Shown: positions 18,929-53,702 of the stretch, in pieces
Layout of the letters: every line of letters starts with the position of its first letter
Position numbering within the stretch: the stretch's first letter is position 1
Source: Escherichia coli
GTDB lineage: Bacteria; Pseudomonadota; Gammaproteobacteria; Enterobacterales; Enterobacteriaceae
Direction: 5' to 3' (one strand)
Assembly: GCF_024700885.2 (NCBI RefSeq)
Contig: NZ_CP117016.1
Length of the DNA stretch: 64,000 nt
Position numbers and translations under genes: made by a program
The notes under the pieces: model-generated
Databases searched by the model: none
The model's input: only the letters and a program-made list of their open reading frames with translations
Told to the model about the DNA's origin: nothing

Positions 18929-19393
<465 letters not shown>

Positions 19394-22610: not shown

Positions 22611-23027
22611 ATGGCAAACCCGGAACAACTGGAAGAACAGCGTGAAGAAACACGTTTGATTATTGAAGAATTACTGGAAGATGGCAGCGATCCGGACGCG
22701 CTGTACACCATCGAACACCATCTTTCCGCAGACGATCTGGAAACTCTGGAAAAAGCGGCAGTTGAAGCGTTTAAACTCGGTTACGAAGTGACCGATCCAG
22801 AAGAGCTGGAAGTTGAAGATGGTGACATCGTGATTTGCTGCGACATCCTCAGCGAGTGCGCATTGAATGCCGATCTGATCGATGCCCAGGTTGAACAACT
22901 GATGACGCTGGCGGAGAAATTTGACGTTGAGTACGACGGTTGGGGCACTTACTTTGAAGATCCTAATGGCGAAGATGGCGACGATGAAGATTACGTCGAT
23001 GAAGACGATGACGGGGTTCGCCACTAA
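22611..23027 (+). CDS. rraB: RNase E regulator RraB
   Basis: 138 aa, very acidic. Recognised as YjgD/RraB. Confidence 0.93.
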
Positions 23028-23072
23028 TTAATTGATTAAAATGCCCGATAGCACACACTAGCGGGCATTTTT

Positions 23073-23576
23073 TTAGAGTTCGCGTAGCATCCGCACTTCA
23101 CAATCGACATGGCCCGTGCAGCCAAGCGCATAGTCGATATGCTCAAAGCCCAAATGCTCATAAAGCGCAATGGCTTCCTTTAAAAAAGCGGTCGTTTCCA
23201 GATAGCAGCGTTTGAAGCCCATCTCTCGTGCCTGCTCCATCGCCATTACGGCCAGTTTTTTCGCTAGCCCTTTACCGCGAATAGCCGGAAGAAAATACAT
23301 CTTTTGCAGTTCGCAAATGTCCGACTCACTCCCGGTTAATGGCGCAATCCCACCGCCGCCGACCACTTCACCCTCGTACTCAACCACCCAATATGCATGG
23401 CCAGGCTGACTATACACTTGATACAGCTCGTCAAGATTCGGATCGGCGACGGTGTAGCCTTTATCAGCGGTAAGACCGTATTCGGCGGATACCTGACGAA
23501 TGACGCGGGCAATAGCAGGATTATCCTGCAGCGTCAGGCGACGCATTACAGGTGATTGCGGCGCAATGTTATTCAT
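23073..23576 (-). CDS. yjgM: GNAT-family N-acetyltransferase
   Basis: 167 aa with the acetyl-CoA motif RGKGLAKKL. Confidence 0.9.
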
Positions 23577-23768
23577 AGTTTAACCCAATAAAAATAAAGT
23601 AATTATACATTTGTTTAATACCACTCTCTTCTTACGTGCGCAAGCGTCTTATAAAGCAATAAAGTTTTTGCCAGCCTATTACTGATAAGAGTATTGTAAC
23701 GTGGCAGAACATTTTACTGTCTGTATCTATAAATTATATCAATGGATTTTTTAATTCAGGGAATTTTT

Positions 23769-24965
23769 ATGGCTCAAGTTATTAATGAAATGGATGTTCC
23801 GTCCCATTCTTTTGTTTTTCATGGTACAGGTGAGAGATATTTTCTTATTTGTGTGGTGAATGTGTTGTTAACGATTATAACGCTAGGTATCTATTTACCA
23901 TGGGCATTAATGAAATGTAAGCGTTATCTTTATGCTAATATGGAAGTTAACGGACAACGATTTTCTTATGGAATAACCGGTGGGAATGTTTTTGTTAGTT
24001 GTCTTATTTTTGTTTTTTTCTATTTCGCAATCTTAATGACAGTGTCAGCAGATATGCCGCTTGTTGGTTGTGTTTTGACTTTGTTACTGTTGGTTTTGCT
24101 TATATTTATGGCAGCAAAAGGACTGCGTCATCAGGCCTTGATGACCAGTCTCAACGGCGTAAGATTTAGTTTTAATTGCTCTATGAAAGGGTTCTGGTGG
24201 GTAACCTTTTTCTTGCCGATTTTAATGGCCATTGGGATGGGGACTGTTTTCTTTATCTCGACAAAGATGCTACATGCCAATAGTTCAAGTAGTGTTATTA
24301 TATCTGTGGTTCTGATGGCAATAGTTGGTATTGTTTCCATTGGTATTTTTAATGGTACTTTATATAGTCTGGTAATGAGTTTTCTCTGGAGTAATACCAG
24401 TTTCGGTATACATCGTTTCAAGGTGAAATTAGATACTACATATTGTATAAAATATGCCATTCTCGCATTTTTAGCTTTATTACCTTTTCTCGCTGTTGCT
24501 GGTTATATTATCTTCGATCAAATATTAAATGAGTATGATAGTTCTGGGTATGCAAATGATGATGTTGAGAATTTACAGCAGTTTATGGAAATGCAACGTA
24601 AAATGATAATCGCGCAGTTAATTTATTATTTTGGGATTGCTGTTAGCACCAGTTATTTAACGGTGTCGTTGCGAAATCATTTTATGAGCAACCTGTCACT
24701 GAATGATGGGCGTATTCGTTTTCGCTCAACTTTAACGTACCACGGTATGCTTTATCGCATGTGTGCGTTGGTGGTGATATCCGGGATTACGGGTGGTCTG
24801 GCTTACCCACTGCTGAAAATATGGATGATTGACTGGCAGGCAAAAAATACGTATTTGCTGGGCGATTTGGATGACCTTCCTTTAATCAATAAAGAAGAAC
24901 AACCAGATAAAGGCTTCTTAGCCAGTATTTCTCGGGGAGTTATGCCTTCTTTACCATTTCTGTAA
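23769..24965 (+). CDS. yjgN: DUF898-family inner membrane protein
   Basis: Start at MAQVINEMDV (398 aa). Multiple hydrophobic helices. Confidence 0.85.
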   Translation: MAQVINEMDVPSHSFVFHGTGERYFLICVVNVLLTIITLGIYLPWALMKCKRYLYANMEVNGQRFSYGITGGNVFVSCLIFVFFYFAILMTVSADMPLVGCVLTLLLLVLLIFMAAKGLRHQALMTSLNGVRFSFNCSMKGFWWVTFFLPILMAIGMGTVFFISTKMLHANSSSSVIISVVLMAIVGIVSIGIFNGTLYSLVMSFLWSNTSFGIHRFKVKLDTTYCIKYAILAFLALLPFLAVAGYIIFDQILNEYDSSGYANDDVENLQQFMEMQRKMIIAQLIYYFGIAVSTSYLTVSLRNHFMSNLSLNDGRIRFRSTLTYHGMLYRMCALVVISGITGGLAYPLLKIWMIDWQAKNTYLLGDLDDLPLINKEEQPDKGFLASISRGVMPSLPFL

Positions 24966-24974
24966 GAGATAAAA

Positions 24975-24998
24975 AAGGCCGGAGCATGCTCCGGCCTT
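24975..24998. terminator. bidirectional terminator between yjgN and valS
   Basis: Perfect palindrome AAGGCCGGAGCATGCTCCGGCCTT, flanked by an A-run and a T-run. Confidence 0.7.
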
Positions 24999-25018
24999 CG
25001 TTTTCATCACGGTGTTGA

Positions 25019-27874
25019 TTACAGCGCGGCGATAACAGCCTGCTGTTCAAGCAGCTTCGCTTTCGCTTCCGCATAGCCTTCCAGCTTCTCACGCTCTTTC
25101 GCGATAACCGCTTCCGGTGCACGGGCGACAAAGCCTTCGTTCGCCAGTTTGTTCTCGATACGGCTGATTTCACCTTCGATCTTCGCCACTTCTTTCGCCA
25201 GGCGCGCCAGCTCATCTTCTTTGTTGATGAGGCCAGCCATCGGGATCAGCAGCTCTGCGCCGTCGATGATCTTCGTAACGGAAACCGGACCTTTGTCATC
25301 GGCAGGCAGCACGGTGATGCTTTCCAGACGCGCCAGCGTTTGCAGGAAGCCACGGTTTTCGTTCACTCGACGTTCTGCATCCGCGCTGCAACCACGCAGC
25401 AGCAGCTCCAGCGGTTTGCCCGGCGCGATGTTCATTTCTGCACGGATGTTACGTACAGCAACGATCGCCTGTTTCAGCCACTCGGTGTCGGCCAGTGCGG
25501 CTTCATCAACCTGAGACGCATCGTACTGCGGGAACGGTTGCAGCATGATGGTGTCAGCAGTGATACCGCAAAGTACTTTCACACGCTGCCAGATGGTTTC
25601 GGTGATGAACGGAATGATCGGATGCGCCAGGCGCAGCAAACCTTCCAGTACAGTCACCAGCGTATGGCGAGTACCGCGCAGTTCGGCTTCTGTTCCACCG
25701 TTCATTACCGGCTTGGTCAGCTCCAGATACCAGTCACAGAACTGGTTCCAGGTGAACTCATACAAAATGCCTGCGGCGATATCGAAGCGGAAGCTGTCCA
25801 GCGCTTCGCGGTACGCTTTGATAGTCTGGTTGAACTCCGCCAGAATCCAGCGGTCCGCCAGCGACAGCGTCATTTCACCGCCGTTGAAGCCGCAATCCTG
25901 ACCTTCTGTGTTCATCAGCACAAAGCGGCTGGCGTTCCACAGCTTGTTACAGAAGTTACGGTAGCCTTCCAGACGCTTCATATCCCAGTTGATGTCACGA
26001 CCGGTAGAAGCCAGCGCCGCCAGGGTGAAGCGCAGCGCGTCAGTGCCGTGCGGCTCAATGCCGTTCGGGAACTGTTTCTCGGTGCGCTTACGGATTTTGT
26101 CCGCCAGCTGCGGCTGCATCATATTGCCGGTACGTTTTTCCAGCAGTTCTGGCAGCGAAATACCGTCAACCATATCCAGCGGGTCGATAACGTTACCCTT
26201 GGATTTGGACATCTTCTGGCCTTCGTCGTCACGAATCAGACCGGTCATGTAAACAGTGTGGAACGGCACCTGCGGTTTGCCATTTTCATCTTTGATGAAG
26301 TGCATGGTCATCATGATCATGCGGGCAATCCAGAAGAAGATGATGTCGAAACCAGATACCATCACGCTGGTTGGGTGGAACTGACGCAGGGCGTCGGTAT
26401 TTTCCGGCCAGCCGAGCGTGGAGAAGGTCCACAGCGCGGAGGAGAACCAGGTGTCGAGAACGTCTTCGTCCTGACGCAGGGCAACGTCGGCACCGAGGTT
26501 ATTTTCTTTACGCACTTCGTCTTCATTGCGGCCAACATAAACGTTACCCGCTTCGTCGTACCATGCCGGGATACGGTGACCCCACCACAGCTGACGAGAG
26601 ATACACCAGTCCTGAATATCGCGCATCCAGGAGAAGTACATGTTTTCGTACTGCTTCGGTACGAACTGAATGTCGCCGTTCTCAACCGCTTCAACTGCCG
26701 GTTTCGCCAGTACATCGGCACGCACGTACCACTGGTCGGTCAGCATCGGTTCGATAACCACGCCGCCACGGTCGCCGTAAGGAACGGTCAGGTCGTGCGG
26801 TTTAATTTCTTCCAGCAGGCCGAGTGCATCAACCGCAGCAACGACTGCTTTACGTGCAGCAAAACGCTCGAGTTTCTGGAACTCTGCCGGGATTTCGCTG
26901 GAATAAACGTCAGATTCGTTACCTTTGGTATCGAACACCTGGGCGCTTTCACGGATATCGCCGTCAAAGGTCAGGATGTTGATCATCGGCAGCGCGTGAC
27001 GTTTACCGACTTCATAGTCGTTAAAGTCGTGCGCCGGGGTGATTTTCACGCAGCCGGTGCCTTTTTCCATGTCGGCGTGTTCGTCGCCAACGATCGGAAT
27101 ACGACGGTTAACCAGCGGCAGAATGACATATTTGCCAATCAGATCTTTGTAACGCGGATCTTCCGGGTTAACGGCTACGCCGGTATCGCCCAGTAGGGTT
27201 TCCGGGCGAGTGGTCGCAACCACCAGATAATCTTTACCGTCTGCGGTTTTCGCGCCGTCAGCCAGCGGATAGCGGATGTGCCACATCGAACCTTTCGATT
27301 CGCGATTTTCCACTTCCAGGTCAGAGATAGCGGTACGCAGTTTCGGGTCCCAGTTTACCAGGCGCTTGCCACGGTAAATCAGGTCTTCTTTATACAGACG
27401 AACGAAAACTTCTTTCACCGCATTGGACAGGCCTTCGTCCATGGTGAAGCGTTCACGCTCCCAGTCGACGGAGTTGCCGAGACGGCGCATCTGACGGGTA
27501 ATGGTGCCGCCAGATTCCGCTTTCCATTCCCAGATTTTGTCGATGAAAGCTTCGCGGCCGTAGTCGTGACGGGTTTTACCTTCTTCTGCGGCAATCTTGC
27601 GCTCAACGACCATCTGGGTAGCGATCCCGGCGTGGTCAGTACCGACCTGCCACAGGGTGTTTTTGCCCTGCATGCGCTGATAGCGGATCATGGTATCCAT
27701 GATGGTTTGCTGGAAGGCGTGACCCATATGCAAACTGCCGGTGACGTTCGGCGGCGGGATCATGATGCAGAAACTTTCCTGGCTTTCATCGCCATTAGGC
27801 TTAAAGTAGCCCTGCTTTTCCCAGTGCTCGTAAAGCGGCTGTTCGATATCTTGTGGGTTATATGTCTTTTCCAT
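25019..27874 (-). CDS. valS: valyl-tRNA synthetase
   Basis: 951 aa with the HIGH ([11 protein letters not shown]) and KMSKS motifs. Confidence 0.98.
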
Positions 27875-28317
27875 TATTTCCAGGTTGCCGTATTCAGGTT
27901 GAAACCAGCCACGCGGTAGGCTTTATAGCGTTCGCGCGCCAGTTGTTTCAGAGAATCTTCATAAGGAACGAAGTCTACCACTTCTGTGAAAGCGGTGGCA
28001 AAATCTGCAAAGCTTGTTCGCAGACTAATCAATATATCGCGCGGGCTGCTGCTACGCTTTTGCGGCCAGGCGATCTCCACCGGCGCACCGCCGCGCGGTC
28101 CTTCTCCCGCTAAATTATGCGGAACAAAGCTTTCTGCCGGACGCGCCCACAGGGCTTCATCCAGCCGGTAAGCCTGCTTTTCATCTTCACAGGCGATGAG
28201 CACGCGCTTACCGCTGCGCCAACGTTCTGCGGCAATTTCACACACCAGCTGCTCAACGGCGCTTAAGCCATCGACGGTGGTGTCATTGTCCAGAAGGTAG
28301 AACGTTGCGTTTTTCAT
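27874..28317 (-). CDS. holC: DNA polymerase III chi subunit
   Basis: Start at [11 protein letters not shown] (147 aa). Its stop overlaps the valS ATG in a TAATG arrangement. Confidence 0.93.
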
Positions 28318-28358
28318 ATATGGGGCTTCTTGTGGTGGATTTAAATATTGCTGCATTC

Positions 28359-28440
28359 CTCACCCTGAAAGATGAGCAATGAATTTCTATTGCGCTCGAT
28401 CGGTTCCCTCTCCCTTAGGGAGAGGGTTAGGGTGAGGGTA
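28359..28440. repeat. GC-rich interspersed palindromic repeat (box C-like)
   Basis: CCTCACCCT ... CCCTCTCCCTTAGGGAGAGGGTTAGGGTGAGGG. This sequence type recurs in E. coli intergenic regions. The family name is from memory. Confidence 0.5.
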
Positions 28441-28450
28441 AAACGCAAAC

Positions 28451-29965
<1,515 letters not shown>

Positions 29966-30228
29966 CTACGCTCCTGAATCTTAAAGACAACGGCGGTGGC
30001 TACAGATAGAATTGCAAGCTTTCGTAACTCATGTCCGCTGTTGCGATGACTTCGTGTTAATCTTAACGTTATTACGGCATTGGCACGTCAGAACATAATC
30101 TGAGAGGTGAATCCGTTGAGTATAATTATCTTAGCGACGATTTCGACGACTCAAGAGAATAAATGACGTTTAAGCCATGAAACAAGCTAAAATCCTGCAA
30201 AAGACGAGTTTTTACGGGCGTATTTAAA

Positions 30229-31329
30229 GTGATAATCATAAGATATCTGGTGCGGGAGACGCTCAAAAGCCAGCTGGCGATACTCTTCATCTTGCTTTTG
30301 ATCTTCTTCTGTCAAAAGTTAGTGAGGATCCTCGGCGCAGCGGTTGACGGCGATATTCCGGCGAATCTGGTGCTCTCCCTTCTCGGGTTGGGCGTGCCGG
30401 AAATGGCGCAGCTTATCCTGCCATTAAGCCTGTTCCTCGGGCTGCTGATGACGCTGGGCAAACTGTATACCGAAAGTGAAATTACGGTAATGCATGCCTG
30501 CGGCCTGAGCAAAGCGGTTCTGGTGAAAGCGGCAATGATCCTTGCGGTATTCACGGCAATCGTCGCGGCGGTTAACGTGATGTGGGCGGGACCGTGGTCA
30601 TCGCGTCATCAGGATGAAGTGTTAGCAGAAGCGAAAGCGAACCCTGGCATGGCGGCGCTGGCGCAAGGGCAATTCCAGCAAGCGACTAATGGCAGTTCGG
30701 TGCTGTTCATCGAAAGCGTTGACGGCAGCGATTTCAAAGATGTGTTCCTCGCGCAAATTCGACCAAAAGGTAATGCACGTCCTTCTGTGGTGGTGGCCGA
30801 TTCCGGACATTTAACCCAGCTGCGCGACGGCTCCCAGGTCGTCACTCTCAACCAGGGAACGCGCTTCGAAGGCACTGCACTGTTACGTGATTTCCGCATT
30901 ACGGATTTCCAGGATTATCAGGCGATCATTGGTCACCAGGCGGTGGTGCTCGACCCGAACGATACCGACCAGATGGACATGCGCACATTGTGGAACACTG
31001 ACACCGATCGTGCTCGCGCAGAACTGAACTGGCGTATCACGTTGGTATTCACCGTGTTTATGATGGCACTTATGGTCGTACCGCTGAGCGTGGTTAACCC
31101 ACGTCAGGGACGCGTACTGTCGATGCTGCCAGCCATGCTGCTGTATCTGTTGTTCTTCCTGATCCAGACCTCCCTGAAATCGAACGGCGGTAAAGGTAAG
31201 CTGGACCCGACGCTGTGGATGTGGACCGTTAACCTGATTTATCTGGCTTTGGCGATTGTTCTCAACCTTTGGGACACCGTGCCGGTCCGCCGCCTGCGCG
31301 CCAGTTTTTCGCGTAAAGGAGCGGTGTGA
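30229..31329 (+). CDS. lptF: LPS export ABC permease LptF
   Basis: 366 aa starting MIIIRYLVRETLKSQ with a GTG start. YjgP/YjgQ family. Confidence 0.95.
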   Translation: MIIIRYLVRETLKSQLAILFILLLIFFCQKLVRILGAAVDGDIPANLVLSLLGLGVPEMAQLILPLSLFLGLLMTLGKLYTESEITVMHACGLSKAVLVKAAMILAVFTAIVAAVNVMWAGPWSSRHQDEVLAEAKANPGMAALAQGQFQQATNGSSVLFIESVDGSDFKDVFLAQIRPKGNARPSVVVADSGHLTQLRDGSQVVTLNQGTRFEGTALLRDFRITDFQDYQAIIGHQAVVLDPNDTDQMDMRTLWNTDTDRARAELNWRITLVFTVFMMALMVVPLSVVNPRQGRVLSMLPAMLLYLLFFLIQTSLKSNGGKGKLDPTLWMWTVNLIYLALAIVLNLWDTVPVRRLRASFSRKGAV

Positions 31330-35223: not shown

Positions 35224-35360
35224 TTTTTGGTCCTTCTCTGGTGTTGTCTGGGAAGTGTAGAGCATGGCAGGGCGGGGTGCCTGGAGTGTGACAAAGGTTA
35301 CACATCGCTGTATGCAATGCTGAAAATTTCAGCACTTAGCGAGGTGCGAGCAAGCTGGCG

Positions 35361-35389
35361 CTTGCATGGTGGCGTGCGACAGGTATAAT
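35361..35389 (+). promoter_or_regulatory. leuX promoter
   Basis: CTTGCA (-35), a 17-nt spacer, then TATAAT (35384-35389), about 30 nt upstream of the tRNA 5' end. Confidence 0.6.
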
Positions 35390-35418
35390 CCACAACGTTT
35401 TCCGCATACCTCTTCAGT

Positions 35419-35503
35419 GCCGAAGTGGCGAAATCGGTAGACGCAGTTGATTCAAAATCAACCGTAGAAATACGTGCCGGTTCGAGTCCGGCCTTCGGCA
35501 CCA
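35419..35503 (+). tRNA. leuX: tRNA-Leu (CAA), complete, 85 nt with encoded CCA
   Basis: GCCGAAGTGGCGAAATCGGTAGACGCAGTTGATTCAAAATCAACCGTAGAAATACGTGCCGGTTCGAGTCCGGCCTTCGGCACCA. It has a long variable arm and anticodon loop TTCAAAA. Confidence 0.97.
35479..35503 (+). repeat. direct repeat copy 1 (att core inside leuX 3' end)
   Basis: GGTTCGAGTCCGGCCTTCGGCACCA, identical to 41077-41101. Confidence 0.95.
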
Positions 35504-36016
35504 AGTCACTAAATTCCTTACAATACAGGTAGTTAGACAATAAAATCTGTCTCTTTTGCCTGTAAGAAATGCTCTGTTATGTCCCTTGAAAAAGCCGCTG
35601 TGGTTGATAGTGGTAATTGGGATGTTAACTCATAGCGGCGTGTAGTTCCAAGCGTCAAACACGTACTGACTCAACTTGAAAGCTATGACGTAGCCACTGT
35701 CTCTAAACAATCCCAAAAACTTTTAGTGAAGCGCATTTTAGCCCGATGCCCCCGTTCTGCCGCTGTCGCGAGACGCCGCAGGGGATAAACAGGTTTATGG
35801 TGGTCACGGTACTTGCAGACCATATGCAAGCTCTGCCAGCGGTTCGGCCTCGCTCCCCTTGGGTACATGGTCATCCTGATAAGCCTCACTAACTGACATA
35901 ACTGTGATGTAGTCGCCAGAGGCTCCGCTTGTTGTCTTACCACCAACGGGGCTTTATGGATTCTATTGCGGTATGTTTGAAAGTGCGCGGGGGTTCATTC
36001 CCGCGCGTCCGGCGCT

Positions 36017-36931
36017 TTATGGTAAGTATTTAAGTATTTCTGCTGCCCAGTTTACACGGTGGATGACACGGGCATGGTGCAAGTTTCCGTCTAGTATTTC
36101 GGCTTTAGTTAGCTGGGATAACTGCTGCCAATTATTGTTAAGTATATAAGTTGCGTTATTACATTGTGAGCTTTCTAGCACGTAAATGTTTTGGCCTGTG
36201 AACCCAAATATCACGTAGCCTTGGAACCCAGCTTGCCCAACCGCTACGAAATCTGGTTTTTTACTATTGATAAGTTCAAGTCTGCCTTCAACAACAGCGG
36301 TATTGCCCTTTCCCCTGATCTTAATAGCTGAAAGGATTTTTGAGCCGATAGTACTCCAAGGCTGTTGACCCTGAGGCAGGAGGCTCCAGTTTAGTTTTAT
36401 AGATTTACTTTTAACGATGGTATTAAGTTGGTCGTCAACAGTTTCGCACAACCCAAAAAGCTCTAAAAAAAGATTAATGCAGTGAGCCACTAACTCTTTG
36501 TTGTTAGCTGTCAAACTTAGCTTTGGAGAGATGATCAACTTCTCCCCTTGAAGATTCTCTACAATCTTTAACTCTATGCTTGGTGGAGGGGTGAGGATTC
36601 TCTTGTAGCGCTTATACTCAATTTCACGAGTGTCAGTAACTTCTTGAGTTGCGCCCCCTCCGATCCATTGCTTTCTAGTCCATGAAATTTGTCTGTATGC
36701 AGTTTCTTTAGGTGCTGTTTTGTCAGGTACTGATTTGCCATTAGCATTGAATCTGGTTATTGGCCCTAAAATCTTGGGGAGGACTTCTTCACCTAAAGCT
36801 CTTTGACTTGAGAAACCAATAGAGTCCGTTTTCCCCGCATCTGGCAAAGAATGTGCAATGTAGATATCACGGCCATCAAAGTTAGGTATGTAATTATCAA
36901 TATTTCGAATACGCTTTTTCTGAATAAGCAT
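36017..36931 (-). CDS. orphan 304-aa protein, no family recognised
   Basis: Long AT-rich ORF with SD AAGGAA 7 nt upstream of the ATG. A GCGCGGG..CCCGCGC hairpin lies after the stop. No motif that I can assign. Confidence 0.75.
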   Translation of the reverse strand: MLIQKKRIRNIDNYIPNFDGRDIYIAHSLPDAGKTDSIGFSSQRALGEEVLPKILGPITRFNANGKSVPDKTAPKETAYRQISWTRKQWIGGGATQEVTDTREIEYKRYKRILTPPPSIELKIVENLQGEKLIISPKLSLTANNKELVAHCINLFLELFGLCETVDDQLNTIVKSKSIKLNWSLLPQGQQPWSTIGSKILSAIKIRGKGNTAVVEGRLELINSKKPDFVAVGQAGFQGYVIFGFTGQNIYVLESSQCNNATYILNNNWQQLSQLTKAEILDGNLHHARVIHRVNWAAEILKYLP

Positions 36932-37062
36932 GGATCGTTCCTTTTGATTTTATCTTACTGTTTACATAACCAACCAAGCCGGGCACAATCGAGCCGTTAG
37001 AAACGATAGTGAGGCTAACAATCGTTATGAGTTTGCAGACTCATGGCGGTCATGCTTCATAG

Positions 37063-37094
37063 ACCGGATTCACGCAGGTGACTCCGGTTTTTTT
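37063..37094 (+). terminator. strong plus-strand rho-independent terminator with no upstream plus-strand ORF
   Basis: ACCGGA-T-TCAC GCAG GTGA-C-TCCGGT followed by seven T. The opposite strand lacks a U-run. Confidence 0.7.
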
Positions 37095-37787
37095 ATGCCC
37101 ATCATTTATACATGAGCACAACATATAGGGTGTGTTAATAAGATTACCCCCTACATGTTCAGCATTCTAGTTAGGATTCTTTGCAGTACAAGGGGTGATT
37201 TTGAGGTTAAATTGAGGTTGTCAAAGGGAAATTTCGACCAACCCTACGTGCCGTAAGGCTTAGGCTGTATGTCAATGTTTCAGAAAAAAAATGAAAATTT
37301 GATCGAGTGCTGATTTCTTTAGCACGAGAACATGAGATCGAACCAAAATATTGCAAAGTTTTGAACAAAACTTGAGCTGCCTCGTGTCTCCATAGCCAAG
37401 ACGAATGCAGTTTAAATAAGCTAAGTCAGCTCTCAAAAGTCCTTTATGACCCGAACCAAAAATTGTACCTCTTAAACCCCCACCGCAAGCGGCTCTCCGG
37501 GGTTTGTGCGCGTGGAGTAATGCGATTGTACTGGGTATGTGCGCACAACCCTCTACAAGCCGCATTCTACCGTTAGCCTATAGCTGAATCCCCGGCTTGA
37601 AAAATTGCACGCTTATGGTTGCCCCTCCCTCAACTGTATAGCTCGCCCGCGCCCCCGTGCGCATGTGCGTGCCCGCGCGTCAGGGGTCGCTGAGAAAACC
37701 CTAAGATTTTGCTCATCCGAGACAACCGTTGCAGGCGCGCGTTGCCGGGGCACACTGTTAGTGTTTGATGGTGTCATCAATCGACCG

Positions 37788-37884
37788 TTTTCTGGCACCT
37801 CCCAATCGCACGCTTTCACACTGTTGGAAAAATAGCCTTGGCTTTTCTGGCAGGCCATCCTAATGTTGGCCTCGTTTTCTGGCA
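37788..37884 (+). promoter_or_regulatory. three direct copies of TTTTCTGGCA upstream of the recombinase gene
   Basis: Copies at 37788-37797, 37843-37852 and 37875-37884. Copy 2 sits in the imperfect palindrome GAAAAATAGCC-TT-GGCTTTTCTG. Confidence 0.4.
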
Positions 37885-37906
37885 GGGGTCAGATGGGGAG
37901 ATAACA

Positions 37907-38467
37907 ATGGCAACTTTTGGCTACGGACGTGTTTCGACATCGCAGCAGGATACTGAGAACCAACGGCTGGAGCTTGGGCAGGCTGGGTGGCAAATTGATT
38001 ACTGGTTTGCCGATGTTGTTAGCGGGAAGGTTCCGGCAATGCAACGTAAAGCATTTTCTGAAATGCTCAATAAAATCCGCGATGGTGAAACGTTGGTGGT
38101 AGCGAAGCTTGATCGTCTGGGGCGTGATGCGATTGACGTCCTGCAAACGGTAAGGGCGCTGGCTGACCGTAATATCAAGGTTCTTGTCCACCAGCTTGGT
38201 AACACAGATCTCACTTCTGCCGCTGGGAAGTTGCTATTATCTATGCTCGCCGCGGTTGCGGAGATGGAGCGTGATCTGCTGATTGAGCGCACTCAGGCGG
38301 GACTATCACGAGCAAAAGCCGAAGGTAAGAAATTGGGCAGACCTCCTAAAATCGCGTCAGAAGCCCGTAGAGAGATTTTAGAGAAAAAGAATAGCGGTTT
38401 GAGTATCAGTGCGTTAGCGCGTCAATATGGCGTTTCAAGAGCGACTGTAGCAGCTATTACCGATTGA
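37907..38467 (+). CDS. small serine recombinase (resolvase/invertase family)
   Basis: Start at MATFGYGRVSTSQQ (catalytic Ser motif) with SD GGGGAG upstream. Contains DRLGRD and the C-terminal HTH GLSISALARQYGVSRATV. 186 aa. Confidence 0.9.
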   Translation: MATFGYGRVSTSQQDTENQRLELGQAGWQIDYWFADVVSGKVPAMQRKAFSEMLNKIRDGETLVVAKLDRLGRDAIDVLQTVRALADRNIKVLVHQLGNTDLTSAAGKLLLSMLAAVAEMERDLLIERTQAGLSRAKAEGKKLGRPPKIASEARREILEKKNSGLSISALARQYGVSRATVAAITD

Positions 38468-38480
38468 ATATGGAGAGTTT

Positions 38481-39326
38481 ATGGCTTACACAGCAACTGT
38501 TATCCCTGTAATGATTGCTTCTCCTGGTGATGTCGCTGAAGAGAGACAAGTCATTCGTGAAATGATCCATGAGTGGAATGATATAAATTCAGCTCGTTCA
38601 AAAGTAATGTTGACACCAATTGGATGGGAAACTCATACATCACCCGAATTAGGAGTTAGGCCTCAGAAGTTGATTAATCAAAGATTATTAGTAGATTGTG
38701 ATTTATTAATCGGTGTGTTTTGGACTCGTCTAGGCTCACCGACTGGGAACGAGGCCAGCGGAACAGTCGAAGAAATCCACCGTCATTTGAATGCGGGAAA
38801 ACCGGCAATGATTTACTTTTCCTCAAAGCCTGTTGCCCCTGAAAGCCTTGATAGAGAACAATATGAGTCTCTTAAATTGTTCAAAACTGAGTGCATGCAA
38901 AAGGGATTGATAGAGTCTTTTAATGACTTATCTGATTTCAAAGACAAAGTCCGTAGGCAACTTTCGATAATTATTTCTAGTAGCCCTTATTTGTCTTCTC
39001 TTATATCTACCATTAACAATTCTCCTGATGCGAATACAAGTCAATCTTTGCCAGAAAGTAATTTGTCCGCCGATGCACTCAGTTTGCTGAAATTGGCATG
39101 TGTCGATGATAGCGGAACAATTTATGTGATAAGGCATTTAGGTGGCACGGATATTCAAGCGGGAAATCAATCCTTTGGTGGAAGTTCGGCTAGAGAGGTA
39201 GCCCGTTGGGAGGGCGCACTTAACGAACTGTTATCCTTTGATTATGTGATTGAAAGAGGGGCAAAAGGACAAATGTATTATGTTACTCATAAAGGCTGGA
39301 CATTTCTTGAATCTTTAAATGAATAA
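38481..39326 (+). CDS. DUF4062 / TIR-like (nucleoside 2-deoxyribosyltransferase-like) N-terminal domain protein with an unknown C-terminal domain
   Basis: N-terminal VMIASPGDVAEER ... CDLLIGVFWTRLGSPTG..ASGTVEEIHRHLNAGKPAMIYFS matches my memory of the DUF4062 pattern. Lies 13 nt after the recombinase stop with SD GGAGAG upstream. Confidence 0.6.
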   Translation: MAYTATVIPVMIASPGDVAEERQVIREMIHEWNDINSARSKVMLTPIGWETHTSPELGVRPQKLINQRLLVDCDLLIGVFWTRLGSPTGNEASGTVEEIHRHLNAGKPAMIYFSSKPVAPESLDREQYESLKLFKTECMQKGLIESFNDLSDFKDKVRRQLSIIISSSPYLSSLISTINNSPDANTSQSLPESNLSADALSLLKLACVDDSGTIYVIRHLGGTDIQAGNQSFGGSSAREVARWEGALNELLSFDYVIERGAKGQMYYVTHKGWTFLESLNE

Positions 39327-39360
39327 TTAAATGCGAGGCCATTACATAAGTTTATTTTTG

Positions 39361-39390
39361 ATGTGAGGGTGAATTCCCTCACATTTTTAT
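39361..39390. terminator. bidirectional terminator between convergent genes
   Basis: ATGTGAGGG-TGAATTC-CCTCACAT hairpin with T-runs on both sides. Confidence 0.7.
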
Positions 39391-39881
39391 TCGAAAGAGG
39401 CCGCAATGACTTCTCCTGTTTTTGCGTTGAAAACACAAAAGTATTGAAGCGGAGCTAGCATCCCCAAGCCGTTAACTACCTTAGCTTGTTGCCCAAATGC
39501 CTGAATAATCTTCGCATTCTCATCGTGCCAGAGATAAGTATTAAATACAGGCGCTTCGCTTTCTTGCCACACATGGCGAAACTTCGCTTTCTCATCCATT
39601 ACCTTTTTGCACTCCCTGACCGGGTTATGGTGCGTTTTCGCATAGCATTCCGGGTTGTCATCTGCACATACGATATCTTTTCGTGCTGTCTGATGCTCAG
39701 CACCTACAGCAGAAAAGGCGCATACGCCCAGCACCAATGAGAGAGTGCCCAGAGCACCCCATACAGTTGCGCGTAGCGTGCTGATGTGCTGCTTTGATAC
39801 AGCATGGGCAACTACACTATAACTGGCCCAGCTAATCGCGGCTCCCGCTGCAATCGGTAGTAAAAAGTCTGCTCCCGTCAT
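39387..39881 (-). CDS. small membrane protein (2 predicted TM helices plus a Cys-containing soluble domain), unknown function
   Basis: Start chosen at MTGADFLLPIAAGAAISW with SD GAGGGAA upstream. A second hydrophobic stretch is VWGALGTLSLVLGVCAFSAV. Confidence 0.65.
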   Translation of the reverse strand: MTGADFLLPIAAGAAISWASYSVVAHAVSKQHISTLRATVWGALGTLSLVLGVCAFSAVGAEHQTARKDIVCADDNPECYAKTHHNPVRECKKVMDEKAKFRHVWQESEAPVFNTYLWHDENAKIIQAFGQQAKVVNGLGMLAPLQYFCVFNAKTGEVIAASFE

Positions 39882-39941
39882 GATTCCCTCACTTTCCAAA
39901 CCACATCGCGCCTGATAGCGAACGCTGGTGACGCCCAACCG

Positions 39942-39955
39942 ATGATGATCATCAT
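39942..39955. promoter_or_regulatory. perfect 14-bp palindrome in the divergent promoter region (candidate XRE operator)
   Basis: ATGATGATCATCAT (contains GATC), about 60 bp upstream of the 2-TM gene start. Confidence 0.4.
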
Positions 39956-40121
39956 ACTTGTTGGGTTTTAAATGTCACCATTGGTGTTTGTTTTGAATCA
40001 AAAAGGATTGTCATGATACAGCCGATGAATGCTAGTGACTAAGCTCGCTGACGTGAGATTGGATTCAAAATATCTCATATGGAGCGTGGCCTTACAGTGG
40101 TCAAAATTGCACATTCAGTGC

Positions 40122-40586
40122 ATGAAAAAATCCCTGAGAATACAGTTTGGCGAGCGGGTAAAAGAACTGCGCATTGCCACCGGATTGAGCCAGGAGGCCT
40201 TTGCCGATCGGTGCGGGTTTGCACGTAGTTATATGAGCAGAATTGAACGTGGTGGCTCTAATGCGTCTCTGGATGCGATTGAGGTGCTGGCTAACGCTCT
40301 GAGCGTTGAGCCGTGGCAGTTGTTAGCGCCTGGCCCATCTGAAGATAACGACTCGGAACTGTTGGTTCCATACGCAGCCGATGGTTCCTGTTTTCACCCC
40401 GGTTTGGCGAGCACCCGTGATGGCTCGTTTGGCGTAGGTGATAAAGCGGCTCAGAAGCGTTTTGGCACGTTTGCTGAAGCTCTTGAGTATCTTCGTAGCA
40501 TGGAGACAGCAAAATGGCGTAGGCCTAATCCTAGCGGCAACTGGGGTATCGTATCAGCGGTTCGGTGGGACAAACTGAGAAAGTAG
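40122..40586 (+). CDS. XRE-family HTH regulator with an approximately 85-aa C-terminal extension
   Basis: MKKSLRIQFGERVKELRIATGLSQEAFADRCGFARSYMSRIERGGSNASLDAIEVLANAL is a canonical Cro/C1 HTH. The start is uncertain: there is no clear SD, and an alternative start lies at 40029. Confidence 0.75.
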   Translation: MKKSLRIQFGERVKELRIATGLSQEAFADRCGFARSYMSRIERGGSNASLDAIEVLANALSVEPWQLLAPGPSEDNDSELLVPYAADGSCFHPGLASTRDGSFGVGDKAAQKRFGTFAEALEYLRSMETAKWRRPNPSGNWGIVSAVRWDKLRK

Positions 40587-40709
40587 CTCAAGTGTAAGTT
40601 TATGAATTTTCATGCTGTATGGATGAACAGTATTCATTAGATGCTGATAGTCTTATGTTTCATCAGCCCTTTGTTTCTATAAGAGTGAATAAAACAGCAA
40701 AATGCGGGT

Positions 40710-40739
40710 GCGTTACGTAGGCGTTACGGTGGCGTTTCG
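40710..40739 (+). repeat. three iteron-like GCGTTWCG repeats with 11-bp phasing
   Basis: GCGTTACG at 40710 and at 40721, and GCGTTTCG at 40732. Confidence 0.6.
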
Positions 40740-41076
40740 CTTTGGCTCTTAATGGCTTAATTCATATAAATAACATTGAGTTAAATAGTTATTCTGAACA
40801 AGGTCTGCCGGGGTCTAACTGGTTTCAAAATCCGAACGCAGTGGCGTTTATTCAACGTCCACATAGCTGACAAATGTTCTTTCCTCCCGACTCGGCAGAC
40901 CTCCAGAAACATTAAAAGGCAGGTATGGCACGTTGATGTTTTATGCCGCCACGAACACTCGGTTTGATTCCGTCCAGCGGATCAAACTTAATATGTAGCC
41001 CCTAGAACAAAAAGGTCCTACGATTGCTCTCTTAACAGCTAACAGGAACGTGATTACAGCAGGTTATAGAGACTTA

Positions 41077-41101
41077 GGTTCGAGTCCGGCCTTCGGCACC
41101 A
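41077..41101 (+). repeat. direct repeat copy 2 (leuX 3'-end remnant)
   Basis: GGTTCGAGTCCGGCCTTCGGCACCA with no tRNA body upstream. Confidence 0.95.
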
Positions 41102-41114
41102 AAAGTATGTAAAT

Positions 41115-41138
41115 AGACCTCAACTGAGGTCTTTTTTT
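41115..41138 (+). terminator. tRNA-type terminator following the remnant
   Basis: AGACCTCA-AC-TGAGGTCT followed by TTTTTTT. Confidence 0.8.
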
Positions 41139-41287
41139 ATGCCTGAAATCCAGTGTTTATCTATCTTTCCCGCTATATTAACTCTCTCAAGGTCAACCGA
41201 TATCAACGTACATCTACCAACATATGTTGGTACAGATGATGGTATTTCCGGTTCGATAATGCTTGTACCAACAGGGAGGGAATACGC

Positions 41288-41734
41288 ATGGCATTAACAG
41301 ATATCAAAGTCAGAGCAGCCAAGCCAACGGATAAGCAATATAAGCTGACTGATGGTGGCGGTATGCATCTGCTTGTCCATCCAAATGGTTCTAAGTACTG
41401 GCGTTTGCAGTACCGTTATGAGGGAAAGCAAAAAATGCTGGCACTTGGGGTTTATCCTGAAATCACACTAGCGGATGCCAGAGTACGTCGTGACGAGGCG
41501 CGTAAGCTGCTTGCGAATGGCGTCGATCCGGGAGACAAAAAGAAAAATGATAAGGTTGAACAGAGTAAAGCACGAACCTTTAAAGAAGTCGCGATTGAGT
41601 GGCATGGCACCAATAAAAAGTGGTCTGAAGATCACGCCCATCGTGTGCTAAAAAGTCTTGAAGATAATCTTTTTGCAGCGCTTGGTGAACGTAATATCGC
41701 TGAGTTAAAAACTCGAGATTTATTAGCACCTATT
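41288..41734 (+). pseudogene. intB: P4-type tyrosine integrase, N-terminal approximately 149 codons only
   Basis: MALTDIKVRAAKPTDKQYKLTDGGGMHLLVHPNGSKYWRLQYRY... is the conserved P4 Int/IntB N-terminus. Similarity stops after ...KTRDLLAPI, and no catalytic R..HxxR..Y domain follows. Confidence 0.85.
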
Positions 41735-42359
41735 GTTCCTTTAACCATCCGCAATGGCCAACGGTTTACAGAGCATAATACGAATAGCCGTAGAGCCAGC
41801 CAGTTACGGTGGTCGCGATGGTGTGTCCGCCAGAAAATCACCACGAATACCAGAATCGCGGCACTGACCAGAAAATGATAAACAGGAAACACGGGGAGGT
41901 TCACTTTGCTTTCTCCTGTAGTATTTTCTGTAGGTTCTGAACCGGTTCGAGCGGGGTTGTGAGGCTGATGGCAATCCCCGGGCTCTTCCTGCATGTTACA
42001 CTGGTACTGCAACAGGGGGCCTTCGCTCCTATGACATTACTCAGTATTTTCACTACTACACCCCATCTGCCATCCATAACAACCGATTCACCCCCTCGGG
42101 AGGCGTTGTTGCCCGTCACCCGGACAGGCATCGTTATGGACTTCTCTTGTTGCACGATCGATCAATTGTTATGCATGCTGACACCACTACCCCGGTGGGT
42201 ATGACCGATGCCTTTCTCACTCTCTTCCCGGTCATCGTCGGCCTTCCCCGTTATTGTGGCGTGTCGGCACCATCGACGGCATTTCGATGGCTGCTCAGTG
42301 TTCACTCACGTTACGGCCCGCATAACCCATTGACTTCCTGAAGAAGTCGTTTCAGGGAG

Positions 42360-51676: not shown

Positions 51677-53249
<1,573 letters not shown>

Positions 53250-53297
53250 TGAAATTCCTGAGAGAATAGTGGACACCAAATATGGTGGACGCTATCC

Positions 53298-53702
53298 ATG
53301 AAATCATTAACCGCAGTGCGTAAAAAAAGCCCTAATTATCCCGTTGAGTTCAAAATCAAAATGGTTGAACTCTCGCATCGACCAGAGATCTCCGTAGCGC
53401 AACTCGCTCGTGAGCATGGGATCAACGATAATTTGCTGTTCAAGTGGCGCCAGTACTGGCGCGAAGGAAAACTACGTCCTCCTTCAACAACAGAAAACAA
53501 CGTGCCTGAGCTGCTCCCGATAACACTTGATGCCGAAGATGTTGTCCCTACAACCTCCCCCCGGTCACAACCTGTAGCTGCTGCGACACCTGAATCACTC
53601 AATATCAGCTGTGAAGTGACGTTCCGGCACGGATCACTCCGTCTGAATGGTGCCATCAGCGAAAATATCCTGAACCTGCTGATACGGGAGCTCAAACGTT
53701 GA
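53298..53702 (+). CDS. IS66-family TnpA (HTH)
   Basis: 134 aa with VAQLAREHGINDNLLFKWRQ. Confidence 0.85.
   Translation: MKSLTAVRKKSPNYPVEFKIKMVELSHRPEISVAQLAREHGINDNLLFKWRQYWREGKLRPPSTTENNVPELLPITLDAEDVVPTTSPRSQPVAAATPESLNISCEVTFRHGSLRLNGAISENILNLLIRELKR

What the first reader, a model, noticed from the sequence alone, without database searches (positions are those of the whole stretch)
35479..41101. Integrase-less 5.6-kb islet between a complete leuX and a second copy of its 3' end
**Boundaries.** The last 25 nt of leuX (GGTTCGAGTCCGGCCTTCGGCACCA, 35479-35503) recur exactly at 41077-41101. No tRNA body precedes the second copy. A tRNA-type terminator and the N-terminus of a P4-type integrase follow it. 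This is the signature of two elements stacked at one tRNA attachment site.

**Content.** The proximal element (35504-41076, 5573 bp) has no tyrosine integrase. Its five ORFs are:
- an orphan 304-aa protein
- a 186-aa serine recombinase
- a DUF4062/TIR-like protein
- a 2-TM protein
- an XRE regulator with an unusual C-terminal extension

**Non-coding fraction.** About 40% of the islet (513 + 975 + 240 + 490 bp) has no ORF of 60 aa or more, and it contains several structured or repeated motifs.

**Interpretation.** tRNA-proximal islets with this gene flavour are typical homes of phage-defence or other conflict systems. I cannot match this combination to any named system.
Basis: partly seen in the sequence, partly recalled or inferred. 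Interest (0 to 1): 0.8.

Follow-up and report, generated by a model that had tools for sequence, protein, structure and literature searches.

The report
Fused remnant of two leuX elements
The integrase-less 5.6-kb islet next to the E. coli leuX tRNA gene is real, but it is a leftover made of the outer ends of two different mobile elements joined by an internal deletion; it keeps two stand-alone candidate anti-phage genes, one of a type described only in 2026 and one from a large family that has not been characterised.

Summary
**Observation.** Confirmed: a complete leuX, an exact 25-nt (in fact 26-nt) repeat 5.6 kb downstream, five intact genes, about 40% unannotated DNA and no integrase. Empty sites exist (for example ST131), so the islet is a discrete insertion.

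**What it is.** The islet is not one system. It is a chimera of two elements that both integrate at leuX:
- **Left arm (35504-37783).** This is the integrase-distal end of a ~15-kb capsid-encoding, satellite-like element I call "Y", including its variable cargo slot. An intact Y carrying the identical 304-aa protein exists in LT883142.1.
- **Right arm (37784-41076).** This is the distal 3.3 kb of a ~7.3-kb "island A". In hundreds of E. coli genomes island A has its own 636-aa tyrosine integrase next to leuX.

**Junction.** It lies at the centre of a 26-bp imperfect palindrome upstream of the γδ-resolvase-like gene. This suggests a resolvase-mediated deletion in a tandem Y|att|A array. Arrays in that order exist (strain E1739).

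**Cargo.**
- The DUF4062 protein has the TIR-like core plus winged-helix architecture of the Swarozyc/Evangelion NADase defence proteins (2026 preprints).
- The "orphan" belongs to a family of about 2,000 clusters spread across bacteria and archaea. It has no known domain or fold relative and often sits next to cleavable-repressor or antitoxin-type regulators.

The parts
35419..35503 (+). leuX, tRNA-Leu(CAA). Its last 25 nt (35479-35503) form the left att copy.
35504..35969 (.). Conserved 466-bp leuX-proximal (integrase-distal) end of Y-type elements. It is not ancestral chromosome.
   Evidence: About 97% identical directly after leuX in most of the 632 E. coli genomes that match the left arm (526 at 95-99% identity): C122, N9, ST69, LT883142. 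In EC19 it lies after the second att copy.
36017..36931 (-). 304-aa cargo gene (WP_000908169.1). Uncharacterised, widespread family; candidate stand-alone conflict or defence effector.
36939..37093 (-). Promoter/leader region that travels with the 304-aa gene. Includes a terminator-like hairpin at 37063-37095 on the + strand.
   Evidence: 84% identical to the upstream region of the Serratia plymuthica homologue, with nothing conserved beyond it; sequence read.
37118..37330 (.). Conserved non-coding element of about 210 nt, function unknown, also found on plasmids, phage-plasmids and viral contigs.
37475..37741 (.). GC-rich spacer segment that lies upstream of the Y-type serine recombinase gene in intact Y elements.
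   Evidence: 92.6-96.9% identical to ST69 and N9, 99% to LT883142 up to 37634.
37742..37783 (.). 42 bp of untraced origin. Its last 12 nt (37772-37783, TGTCATCAATCG) form the left half of the hybrid palindrome.
37772..37797 (+). Putative recombinase crossover site (res site I-like 26-bp imperfect palindrome, centre AC at 37784-37785). This is the Y/A chimera junction.
   Evidence: Identity to island A and to plasmid pTB31P2 is 100% to the right of 37782 and at background level to the left. The left half matches the half-site consensus 8/12 (background frequency 0.0036).
37841..37884 (+). Two further direct copies of the half-site (GCTTTTCTGGCA at 37841, CGTTTTCTGGCA at 37873). Putative accessory binding sites.
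   Evidence: The exact 12-mer occurs only at 37786 and 37873 in the 64-kb window. No significant dyad partner was found for these two copies.
37907..38467 (+). Small serine recombinase, 186 aa (Resolvase + HTH_7). γδ/Tn3-resolvase-like, Ser10 present.
38481..39326 (+). DUF4062/NIR TIR-like domain (about 1-170) + linker + winged-helix-like C-terminal domain (about 197-281). Candidate NADase abortive-infection protein.
39360..39385 (.). Terminator-like hairpin between the convergent DUF4062 and TM genes.
39387..39881 (-). 165-aa protein with two N-terminal hydrophobic segments (phrog_20749). Backbone gene of island A and of related plasmids.
40122..40586 (+). XRE-HTH regulator (154 aa) with a conserved C-terminal domain of about 85 aa. 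Backbone regulator of island A-type elements.
40587..41076 (.). Right arm of island A. Includes a degenerate att/T-arm-like sequence at 40961-40986.
41077..41101 (+). Second att copy (right end of island A).
41288..41878 (+). Truncated P4-type integrase of the next, decayed island. It is outside the islet.

Best explanation
**Origin.** The islet is a non-autonomous composite remnant. Two elements that both integrate into the 3' end of leuX, each using a DUF6538-type tyrosine integrase, once lay in tandem: leuX | Y | att | A | att.
- **Y** is a ~15-kb satellite-like element. It encodes a helicase, a scaffold protein, a major head protein and an HNH endonuclease. Its integrase lies at the far end from leuX, and it has a variable cargo slot at the leuX-proximal end.
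- **A** is a ~7.3-kb island with this gene order: integrase, NIPSNAP, DUF1643, res-like site, resolvase, cargo slot, TM protein, HTH regulator.

One deletion removed everything from the spacer just beyond Y's cargo slot to the crossover site upstream of A's resolvase gene. That removed both integrases and the middle att copy. Because the right breakpoint is the centre of the resolvase's palindromic site and the left breakpoint resembles a half-site, A's own resolvase most likely catalysed the deletion. This step is inferred.

**What survives.**
1. Y's cargo, the 304-aa gene.
2. A's cargo, the DUF4062 gene.
3. A's backbone genes: resolvase, TM protein and HTH regulator.

The two att copies remain, so the unit can be gained or lost only through an integrase supplied in trans or through homologous recombination.

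**Function (inferred).** The two cargo genes act independently as single-gene anti-phage effectors.
- The DUF4062 protein would sense a phage component through its winged-helix domain and deplete NAD+ through the TIR-like domain (catalytic Glu97/98), as shown for Swarozyc.
- The 304-aa protein is a toxic or defensive effector whose biochemistry is unknown.
For: **Shown**
- Empty site in ST131, with near-identical flanks.
- The right arm is 99.2% identical to island A in EC19 and CUVET19-1942, where a 636-aa integrase, NIPSNAP and DUF1643 precede it. The same island carries a 65%-identical DUF4062 allele elsewhere.
- Island A's integrase start lies directly next to leuX in many of the 891 genomes that matched the junction query, including Nissle 1917 and O157:H7.
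- The left arm is 99% identical to an intact Y in LT883142.1 that encodes the identical protein WP_000908169.1.
- Y is bounded by att copies, with its integrase distal.
- Y's cargo slot is variable: empty in N9, DUF3800 + 2 genes in ST69, AbiJ-NTD4 in C122, Eco29kI RM in E1739.
- A tandem array in the required order exists in E1739.
- The junction lies at the centre of a 26-bp palindrome, and the 12-mer half-site is unique to this 120-bp stretch.
- The recombinase's best solved relative is γδ resolvase, E = 1.4e-25.
- All of the roughly 90 carriers share this one junction.

**Function**
- Swarozyc has a DUF4062 domain (residues 1-164), a stalk and an HTH/winged AUX domain. Its catalytic residue is E97, and it is a portal-activated NADase (10.64898/2026.05.01.722283).
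- 304-aa family: it stands alone in defence-island and prophage-end contexts. In 32 of 80 loci it has an upstream XRE+M78, HTH+Panacea or LexA-like S24 regulator.
Against: - The 42 bp left of the junction (37742-37783) could not be traced to any sequenced Y variant. The left breakpoint is therefore not seen in its parental context.
- Only site I shows dyad symmetry. The two other half-site copies have no significant partner, so 'res' is an analogy and not a demonstration.
- No genome with exactly Y(304-aa cargo) | att | A was found. E1739 carries a Y relative with different cargo.
- KpSwz residues D16, R18, D71, W176 and W238/Y239 do not line up with this protein. The tested E. coli accession could not be mapped.
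- No enzymatic motif or fold relative was found for the 304-aa protein. In E. coli it lacks the regulator seen in other phyla.
Confidence: 0.72

Rival explanations
1. The five genes form one coherent, novel multi-gene defence system carried by a dedicated islet.
For: The genes are compact and intact, and they are conserved together at 99-100% identity in 78-90 E. coli genomes. The HTH protein hits the PADLOC 'control protein' and capH models.
Against: - The two halves have separate origins.
- The 304-aa gene occurs with Y and without the other four genes.
- The DUF4062 gene is missing from the plasmid version of the recombinase-TM-HTH backbone. It also stands alone in Kangiella and Iodobacter.
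- All carriers share a single junction, so their co-occurrence reflects one event.
Confidence: 0.04
2. The islet is an autonomous element that uses its small serine recombinase, in place of a tyrosine integrase, to integrate at leuX.
For: It is the only recombinase gene between the repeats. The islet behaves as a presence/absence unit at the att repeats.
Against: - The protein is a 186-aa resolvase/invertase-type enzyme whose best relative is γδ resolvase. It lacks the large C-terminal domain of serine integrases.
- Its repeated binding motif lies upstream of its own gene and not at the islet ends.
- The same att duplication flanks islands A and Y, which carry tyrosine integrases.
- The same recombinase sits on plasmids as a backbone gene.
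Confidence: 0.04
3. The Y/A fusion arose by illegitimate or homology-driven recombination, and its position at the palindrome is coincidental. The resolvase played no part.
For: - The left parental site has not been observed.
- Y's own recombinase is only 27% identical to A's, so there is no evidence of a shared site.
- Accessory subsites are not supported statistically.
Against: The breakpoint maps to within about 3 nt of the dyad centre of the only palindromic copy of a motif that is unique in 64 kb. The foreign left half still matches the half-site 8/12, against a background frequency of 0.0036.
Confidence: 0.25
4. The 304-aa gene is not a defence gene. It could be a mobile-element maintenance or addiction toxin, or a regulator-controlled function of the carrier element.
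For: - Panacea-type and XRE antitoxin-like neighbours fit a toxin-antitoxin reading.
- It has no hit to any PADLOC model.
- It sits in a prophage-end, moron-like position in Serratia.
Against: - In E. coli, Enterobacter and Kluyvera it has no antitoxin partner yet is intact and 98-100% conserved.
- The slot it occupies holds AbiJ-NTD4 or RM systems in sister elements.
- In archaea and Thermotogae it neighbours SIR2/HATPase and RM/helicase genes.
Confidence: 0.3

Closest known systems
Swarozyc (KpSwz) and the wider Evangelion / NIR class of DUF4062 single-protein NADase defences (bioRxiv 2026: 10.64898/2026.05.01.722283, 10.64898/2026.06.25.731849, 10.64898/2026.09.04.749371)
   Same: - N-terminal DUF4062 TIR/NDT-like domain of about 165 aa with an invariant Glu at position 97/98.
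- A helical stalk, then a C-terminal winged-helix-type auxiliary domain.
- A single gene, carried on mobile elements and spread by HGT.
   Different: - Shorter (281 aa).
- Several KpSwz interface residues (W176, W238/Y239) are absent.
- The Pfam score is below the cut-off (23.1 against 24.7 bits).
- Clade membership, trigger and NADase activity were not tested here.
Tn3/γδ resolvase-res systems, and resolvase-mediated deletion or module exchange at res site I
   Same: - A small serine recombinase most similar to γδ resolvase.
- A repeated binding motif immediately upstream of its gene.
- A palindromic site with a central dinucleotide at which the sequence mosaic switches.
   Different: - No transposase and no terminal inverted repeats.
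- Accessory subsites II and III are not demonstrable.
- The partner site lay in an unrelated element, so it would be a pseudo-site.
- The recombinase scores equally well as a DNA invertase in PHROGs and NCBIfam.
Defence hotspots of P2 phages and P4-like satellites (Rousset et al. 2022, PMC9122126)
   Same: Mobile elements at tRNA sites with a conserved frame and a slot that swaps defence cargo. Here the Y slot carries AbiJ-NTD4, RM, DUF3800 or the 304-aa gene, and the A slot carries two DUF4062 alleles or nothing.
   Different: Y and A are not P4-like. They have DUF6538-type integrases, Y has its own major head and scaffold genes, and the slot sits at the integrase-distal end. Here only the slots and element ends survive.
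Tandem or decayed tRNA-linked islands at leuX (KpLE2 in K-12, PAI II of strain 536; from general knowledge)
   Same: Repeated use of the leuX 3' end, tandem arrays separated by att copies, and progressive loss of integrases.
   Different: This islet is far smaller, and it was formed by a precise internal fusion of two elements, not by IS-driven erosion.
Defence genes governed by CapH/CapP- or ImmR/ImmA-type, LexA-like or Panacea-type regulators
   Same: In 32 of 80 loci the 304-aa family is preceded by such a regulator. This is the usual arrangement for toxic effectors kept silent until infection or DNA damage.
   Different: The enterobacterial copies, including this window, have no such neighbour. 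The effector itself matches no known family.

Membership tests
tRNA-integrated genomic island (tyrosine-integrase type) | The 3' end of the tRNA gene is duplicated as a direct repeat at the far end. | tested here: met
   Exact 25/26-nt repeat, 0 expected by chance.
tRNA-integrated genomic island (tyrosine-integrase type) | An unoccupied site exists in related genomes. | tested here: met
   ST131 and many others have leuX joined to the same downstream island.
tRNA-integrated genomic island (tyrosine-integrase type) | Encodes its own integrase next to an att end. | tested here: not met
   No Phage_integrase domain between 35504 and 41076.
Island A (DUF6538-integrase leuX island) | Distal module: res-like site, resolvase, cargo slot, TM protein, HTH regulator, att. 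| tested here: met
   99.2% identity over 37775-41102 to EC19; same synteny in L016-L018 and E1739.
Island A (DUF6538-integrase leuX island) | Proximal module: 636-aa integrase, NIPSNAP, DUF1643. | tested here: not met
   Absent from the window. Homology stops at 37782-37785.
Element Y (capsid-encoding satellite-like leuX element) | leuX-proximal 466-bp end, cargo slot and conserved spacer. | tested here: met
   97-99% identical to N9, ST69 and LT883142, and to Enterobacter and Kluyvera.
Element Y (capsid-encoding satellite-like leuX element) | Core: 210-aa recombinase, DEAD helicase, scaffold, major head protein, HNH, distal integrase. | tested here: not met
   None of these genes lies between the att copies in the window. 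They are present in intact Y.
Swarozyc / DUF4062 (NIR) single-protein NADase defence | DUF4062 TIR-like catalytic domain. | tested here: met
   - Pfam DUF4062 E = 8.9e-5, just below the cut-off.
- PADLOC PDC-S60 N-terminal domain 1.3e-26.
Swarozyc / DUF4062 (NIR) single-protein NADase defence | Conserved catalytic glutamate (E97 in KpSwz, E98 in Vulcan). | tested here: met
   E97 and E98 are invariant in 31 family members. Equivalence to the KpSwz residue is inferred from numbering and motif position, not from an alignment with KpSwz.
Swarozyc / DUF4062 (NIR) single-protein NADase defence | C-terminal HTH/winged-helix auxiliary (sensor) domain. | tested here: inconclusive
   The model shows an α/β unit at 197-281 with winged-helix-like topology, pLDDT 80-90. 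No structural comparison of this domain on its own was made.
Swarozyc / DUF4062 (NIR) single-protein NADase defence | Falls in the Swarozyc clade by sequence (KpSwz WP_202404386; tested E. coli protein UPI0002A39D72). | not testable with these tools
   The sequences are not retrievable here. They are not in the PDB copy and the accessions are not in the cluster lists.
Swarozyc / DUF4062 (NIR) single-protein NADase defence | Phage-triggered NAD+ depletion and abortive infection. | not testable with these tools
   Requires experiment.
Resolvase-res system (small serine recombinases) | Resolvase catalytic domain with the active-site serine, plus a C-terminal HTH_7 domain. | tested here: met
   PF00239 8.8e-37 and PF02796; GRVSTSQQ with Ser10; γδ resolvase 1.4e-25.
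Resolvase-res system (small serine recombinases) | A res site with a palindromic crossover site I plus accessory sites II and III upstream of the gene. | tested here: inconclusive
   The site I palindrome is 18/26 self-complementary in island A and the plasmid, 16/26 in the window. Three direct half-site copies are present. Sites II and III lack significant dyads.
Known or candidate defence systems in PADLOC-DB v2 (304-aa protein) | Significant match to any system model. | tested here: not met
   No hit for the window protein. Only 3 of 40 relatives hit the ZorC EH-signature model weakly, best E = 8.7e-4. Pfam does not support this.
Single multi-gene defence operon (all five genes) | The genes co-occur as a unit across unrelated genomes. 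| tested here: not met
   Each module is found separately.

The most novel reading that the evidence does not exclude
- **Size and spread.** It has about 2,000 clusters at 50% identity, almost all 300-315 aa. It occurs from Enterobacteria to Patescibacteria (CPR), Cyanobacteria and methanogenic archaea at about 40% identity, with 40 invariant residues.
- **Regulation.** In many lineages it is kept silent by cleavable repressors (XRE+M78, LexA-like) or by Panacea-type neutralisers.
- **Mobility.** It is carried between genera in the cargo slot of a leuX satellite.
Probability: 0.4. Interest if true: 0.7.

Novelty: new variant of a known kind. Interest (0 to 1): 0.5.

Why it matters
- **How small integrase-less defence islets can arise.** Two tandem mobile elements collapse onto their cargo-bearing ends, probably through an element-encoded resolvase. 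The result is immobile but keeps both cargo genes and both att copies. About 500 E. coli genomes carry a similar Y-end remnant (466 bp + AbiJ-NTD4), so this may be a common route by which satellite and island cargo becomes domesticated.
- **Two directly testable genes.** One is a natural E. coli allele of the newly described DUF4062 NADase class. The other belongs to a very large, cross-domain family with no assigned function, domain or fold. Its genomic associations make it a good candidate for a new defence or toxin activity.

Tried and rejected
- **Conserved RNA partner.** I asked whether the 840-bp spacer upstream of the 304-aa gene is a conserved non-coding partner, as in retrons. Only about 156 bp next to the gene is shared with Serratia, and no shared small ORFs were found. 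Rfam gives nothing beyond the tRNA.
- **Recurrent boundary at 37775.** I first read the plasmid hits starting at 37775 as a recurrent mobile-module boundary. On inspection, homology in plasmids and island A continues leftwards into DUF1643, so the boundary is specific to this chimera.
- **Tn3-family transposon.** Rejected. The 'Tn3 transposase' label on one plasmid is a misannotation of the 186-aa recombinase.
- **Invertible segment.** No inverted copy of the recombinase half-site exists within the islet at 2 mismatches or fewer.
- **Y recombinase sharing the site.** The two recombinases are only 27% identical and have dissimilar upstream regions.
- **Fold and sequence searches for the 304-aa protein.**
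  - PDB by phmmer and by profile: nothing.
  - BFVD: nothing.
  - The AFDB library was unavailable.
  - Pfam, NCBIfam and PHROGs: nothing.
  - The ZorC EH-signature lead is weak and unsupported.
- **Domain fusions.** The top 150 of 2,008 representatives show no informative fusions.
- **Mapping to Swarozyc.** I could not map the tested E. coli Swarozyc homologue to this protein.
- **Source of the 42 bp at 37742-37783.** Not found in E. coli, Enterobacter or Kluyvera.

Full report
**Context.** The window is E. coli chromosome (pyrBI ... valS-pepA-lptFG-yjgR-ahr-leuX). It is 100% identical over the query 35300-41400 to strain CUVET21-37.

**1.
- ARAGORN finds a single tRNA-Leu(CAA) at 35419-35503.
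- Its last 25 nt recur exactly at 41077-41101 (2 matches, 0 expected). The repeat extends to 26 nt.
- No tRNA body precedes the second copy. After it come a terminator-like hairpin (41115-41132) and a truncated P4-type integrase.
- Five intact genes lie between the repeats, and none encodes a tyrosine integrase.
- The quoted non-coding gaps are correct when RefSeq start codons are used.
- Two details need correcting. Mechanical ORFs of more than 60 aa do exist in the gaps. The 304-aa protein is far from an orphan.

**2. It is an insertion, but not one element**
- Of 5,426 complete E. coli genomes, 78 carry the whole islet and about 90 carry its left part and its internal junction.
- Many genomes, ST131 among them, have leuX joined directly to the same truncated integrase. 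Their flanks are 100% and 99.9% identical to the window.
- In carriers whose left chromosomal flank differs by about 2%, the islet and the decayed island to its right are 99.7-100% identical.

**2a. The right arm comes from "island A"**
- Window 37775-41102 is 99.2% identical to the distal part of a ~7.3-kb leuX island in EC19 and CUVET19-1942.
- That island's gene order is: leuX | 636-aa integrase (DUF6538 + Phage_integrase) | NIPSNAP | DUF1643 | recombinase | DUF4062 protein | TM protein | HTH | att.
- A junction query containing the start of this integrase matched 891 genomes, many with the integrase directly next to leuX, including Nissle 1917 and O157:H7.
- The backbone DUF1643 | recombinase | TM | HTH also occurs on IncHI1B/IncF-type plasmids at about 88% identity, but without the DUF4062 gene. 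The DUF4062 gene therefore occupies a cargo slot.
- In E. coli that slot holds two alleles that are 65% identical.

**2b. The left arm comes from "element Y"**
- The first 466 bp after leuX (35504-35969) follow leuX directly in most of the 632 genomes that match the left arm. In EC19 they follow the second att copy instead.
- In N9, ST69 and LT883142.1 this segment begins an element of about 15 kb.
- Its order is: 466 bp | variable slot | conserved spacer (= window 37475-37741) | 210-aa serine recombinase | DEAD helicase | scaffold | major head protein | HNH | endonuclease VII | a second slot (Dcm, or ThsB-TIR) | 402-aa DUF6538-type integrase | att.
- The att copy at Y's far end is exact in N9 and degenerate in LT883142.1.
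- The first slot varies between strains:
  - N9: empty.
  - ST69: three genes, including DUF3800.
  - C122-type remnants: AbiJ-NTD4 + 1 gene.
  - The Y relative in E1739: Eco29kI RM.
  - LT883142.1: the identical 304-aa protein WP_000908169.1, in a left arm 99% identical in DNA over 35992-37634.
- The same leuX | 466 bp | 304-aa gene arrangement occurs at 98% identity in Enterobacter chuandaensis and Kluyvera ascorbata.

**3. The junction**
- Alignment of the window with island A and with plasmid pTB31P2 shows identity falling from 100% to background at 37782-37785.
- That point is the centre of a 26-bp imperfect palindrome. In island A and the plasmid it reads CGCCAACAAACG-AC-CGTTTTCTGGCA (18/26 self-complementary). 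In the window it reads TGTCATCAATCG-AC-CGTTTTCTGGCA (16/26).
- The right half-site 12-mer occurs exactly twice in the whole 64-kb window, at 37786 and 37873. A third copy with 2 mismatches lies at 37841. All three are direct and lie within 120 bp upstream of the recombinase start codon.
- The foreign left half still matches the half-site consensus 8/12. In the window, 0.36% of random positions reach that score at fixed spacing.
- The recombinase has a Resolvase domain and an HTH_7 domain with the active-site Ser10. Its best solved relative is γδ resolvase (E = 1.4e-25).
- My reading, which is inference: the palindrome is the crossover site (a site I analogue). The islet arose when this recombinase deleted the DNA between its own site and a pseudo-site in an upstream Y element, within a tandem array leuX | Y | att | A | att.
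- Arrays in that order exist. E1739 has leuX | Y-like element with a distal integrase | att | island A | att | a third element.
- Weak points:
  - The 42 bp at 37742-37783 could not be traced.
  - The two accessory half-site copies lack significant dyad partners.
  - The exact precursor was not found.

**4. The genes**

*(i) DUF4062 protein (281 aa)*
- It has more than 2,100 homologues of the same length at 52-58% identity across Proteobacteria. It stands alone between housekeeping genes in Kangiella and lies in a prophage-end island in Iodobacter.
- Pfam DUF4062 scores just below the cut-off. The PADLOC model PDC-S60 matches the N-terminal domain at 1.3e-26.
- E97 and E98 are invariant. A disordered linker leads to an α/β domain at 197-281.
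- Three 2026 preprints show that DUF4062 is a TIR-like NADase used in single-protein abortive-infection systems. These are Swarozyc (catalytic E97, HTH/winged AUX domain, activated by a phage portal), Evangelion, and NIR/Vulcan/Vesta.
- The architecture agrees with Swarozyc. Clade membership could not be tested, and several KpSwz interface residues do not line up.

*(ii) 304-aa protein*
- One search gives 722 homologues. The exhaustive profile search gives 2,008 representative clusters, 1,428 of them at E ≤ 1e-10. Almost all are 300-315 aa with no informative fusions.
- The family spans nearly all bacterial phyla, including Patescibacteria, and also archaea, at about 40% identity with 40 invariant columns.
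- Neighbourhood contexts are SIR2 + HATPase genes in Methanobacterium, an RM/helicase cluster in Kosmotoga, and a prophage end in Serratia.
- In 32 of 80 loci an upstream regulator is present. It is XRE-HTH + M78 peptidase (fused or split), HTH + SocA/Panacea, or a LexA-like S24 repressor. A small DUF2188 gene follows in 7 loci.
- This pattern is typical of toxic conflict-system effectors. The biochemistry remains unknown.

*(iii) TM protein and XRE regulator*
- The TM protein (phrog_20749, two hydrophobic segments) and the XRE regulator are backbone genes of island A and of its plasmid relatives.
- The regulator's C-terminal domain is conserved in a full-length family across Enterobacterales and Pseudomonas.
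- A Yersinia entry that joins the regulator to a DUF6538 integrase N-terminus fits a role as the element's own regulator.

**5. Verdict**
- The islet is a decayed but neatly fused composite of two known kinds of leuX-integrating elements. It is not a new multi-gene system.
- Its "integrase-less" state is explained by the deletion.
- What remains of interest:
  - The probable resolvase-made junction.
  - A natural E. coli allele of the just-described DUF4062 NADase class.
  - The large uncharacterised 304-aa family, which is the most novel lead.

Noticed in passing
window 37118-37330: A conserved non-coding element of about 210 nt. It is 75-80% identical to unannotated gaps on Klebsiella, Enterobacter and Citrobacter plasmids and phage-plasmids, and a degenerate 31-nt core matches 10 IMG/VR viral contigs. 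There is no Rfam match. RNAalifold on 4 sequences gives 53 pairs, only 5 with compensatory changes.
   Followed up: partly
window 37063-37095: A strong terminator-like hairpin (ACCGGA...TCCGG followed by T7) on the + strand, inside the 156-bp region upstream of the 304-aa gene that is conserved with Serratia. It faces away from any + strand gene.
   Followed up: no
window 37475-37741: A GC-rich segment with a long imperfect hairpin (37489-37563). In N9, ST69 and LT883142 it is conserved upstream of the Y-type 210-aa recombinase gene. It may be a regulatory or recombination region of element Y.
   Followed up: partly
window 40961-40986: A degenerate third att-like / tRNA T-arm-like sequence (GGTTTGATTCCGTCCAGCGGATCAAA, 69% to att), 90 bp before the second att copy. 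It could be a relic of an older integration or an integrase arm site.
   Followed up: no
L004 (C122) and many of the 632 E. coli genomes matching the left arm; L001 9314-11292: leuX, or a second att copy, is followed by the same 466-bp Y end, then an AbiJ-NTD4 gene, a 190-aa gene and IS debris. This is another, much commoner, integrase-less remnant of a Y-type element that has kept its cargo.
   Followed up: partly
L026 (strain N9) 19002-30415; L028 (E1739) 27825-31004: leuX arrays continue with P4-like satellites or other integrase-led units that carry retron St85 or another reverse transcriptase. E1739's first element also carries Kiwa and Eco29kI RM. leuX acts as a multi-element defence hotspot.
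   Followed up: no
L027 30988-32330; L026 32088-34239: Element Y has a second variable slot next to its integrase. It holds a ThsB-like TIR protein + 1 gene in LT883142.1, and a Dcm methyltransferase + 1 gene in N9.
   Followed up: partly
P0349 (Yersinia intermedia): A 210-aa entry annotated 'Integrase' combines the XRE regulator with a DUF6538 integrase N-terminus. It is either a gene-call artefact across the att junction of a related element or a real fusion.
   Followed up: no
window about 51800-60350 (L022 36516-45049): A dense cluster of IS66, IS21 and IS110 family elements and fragments downstream of the decayed P4-type island.
   Followed up: no
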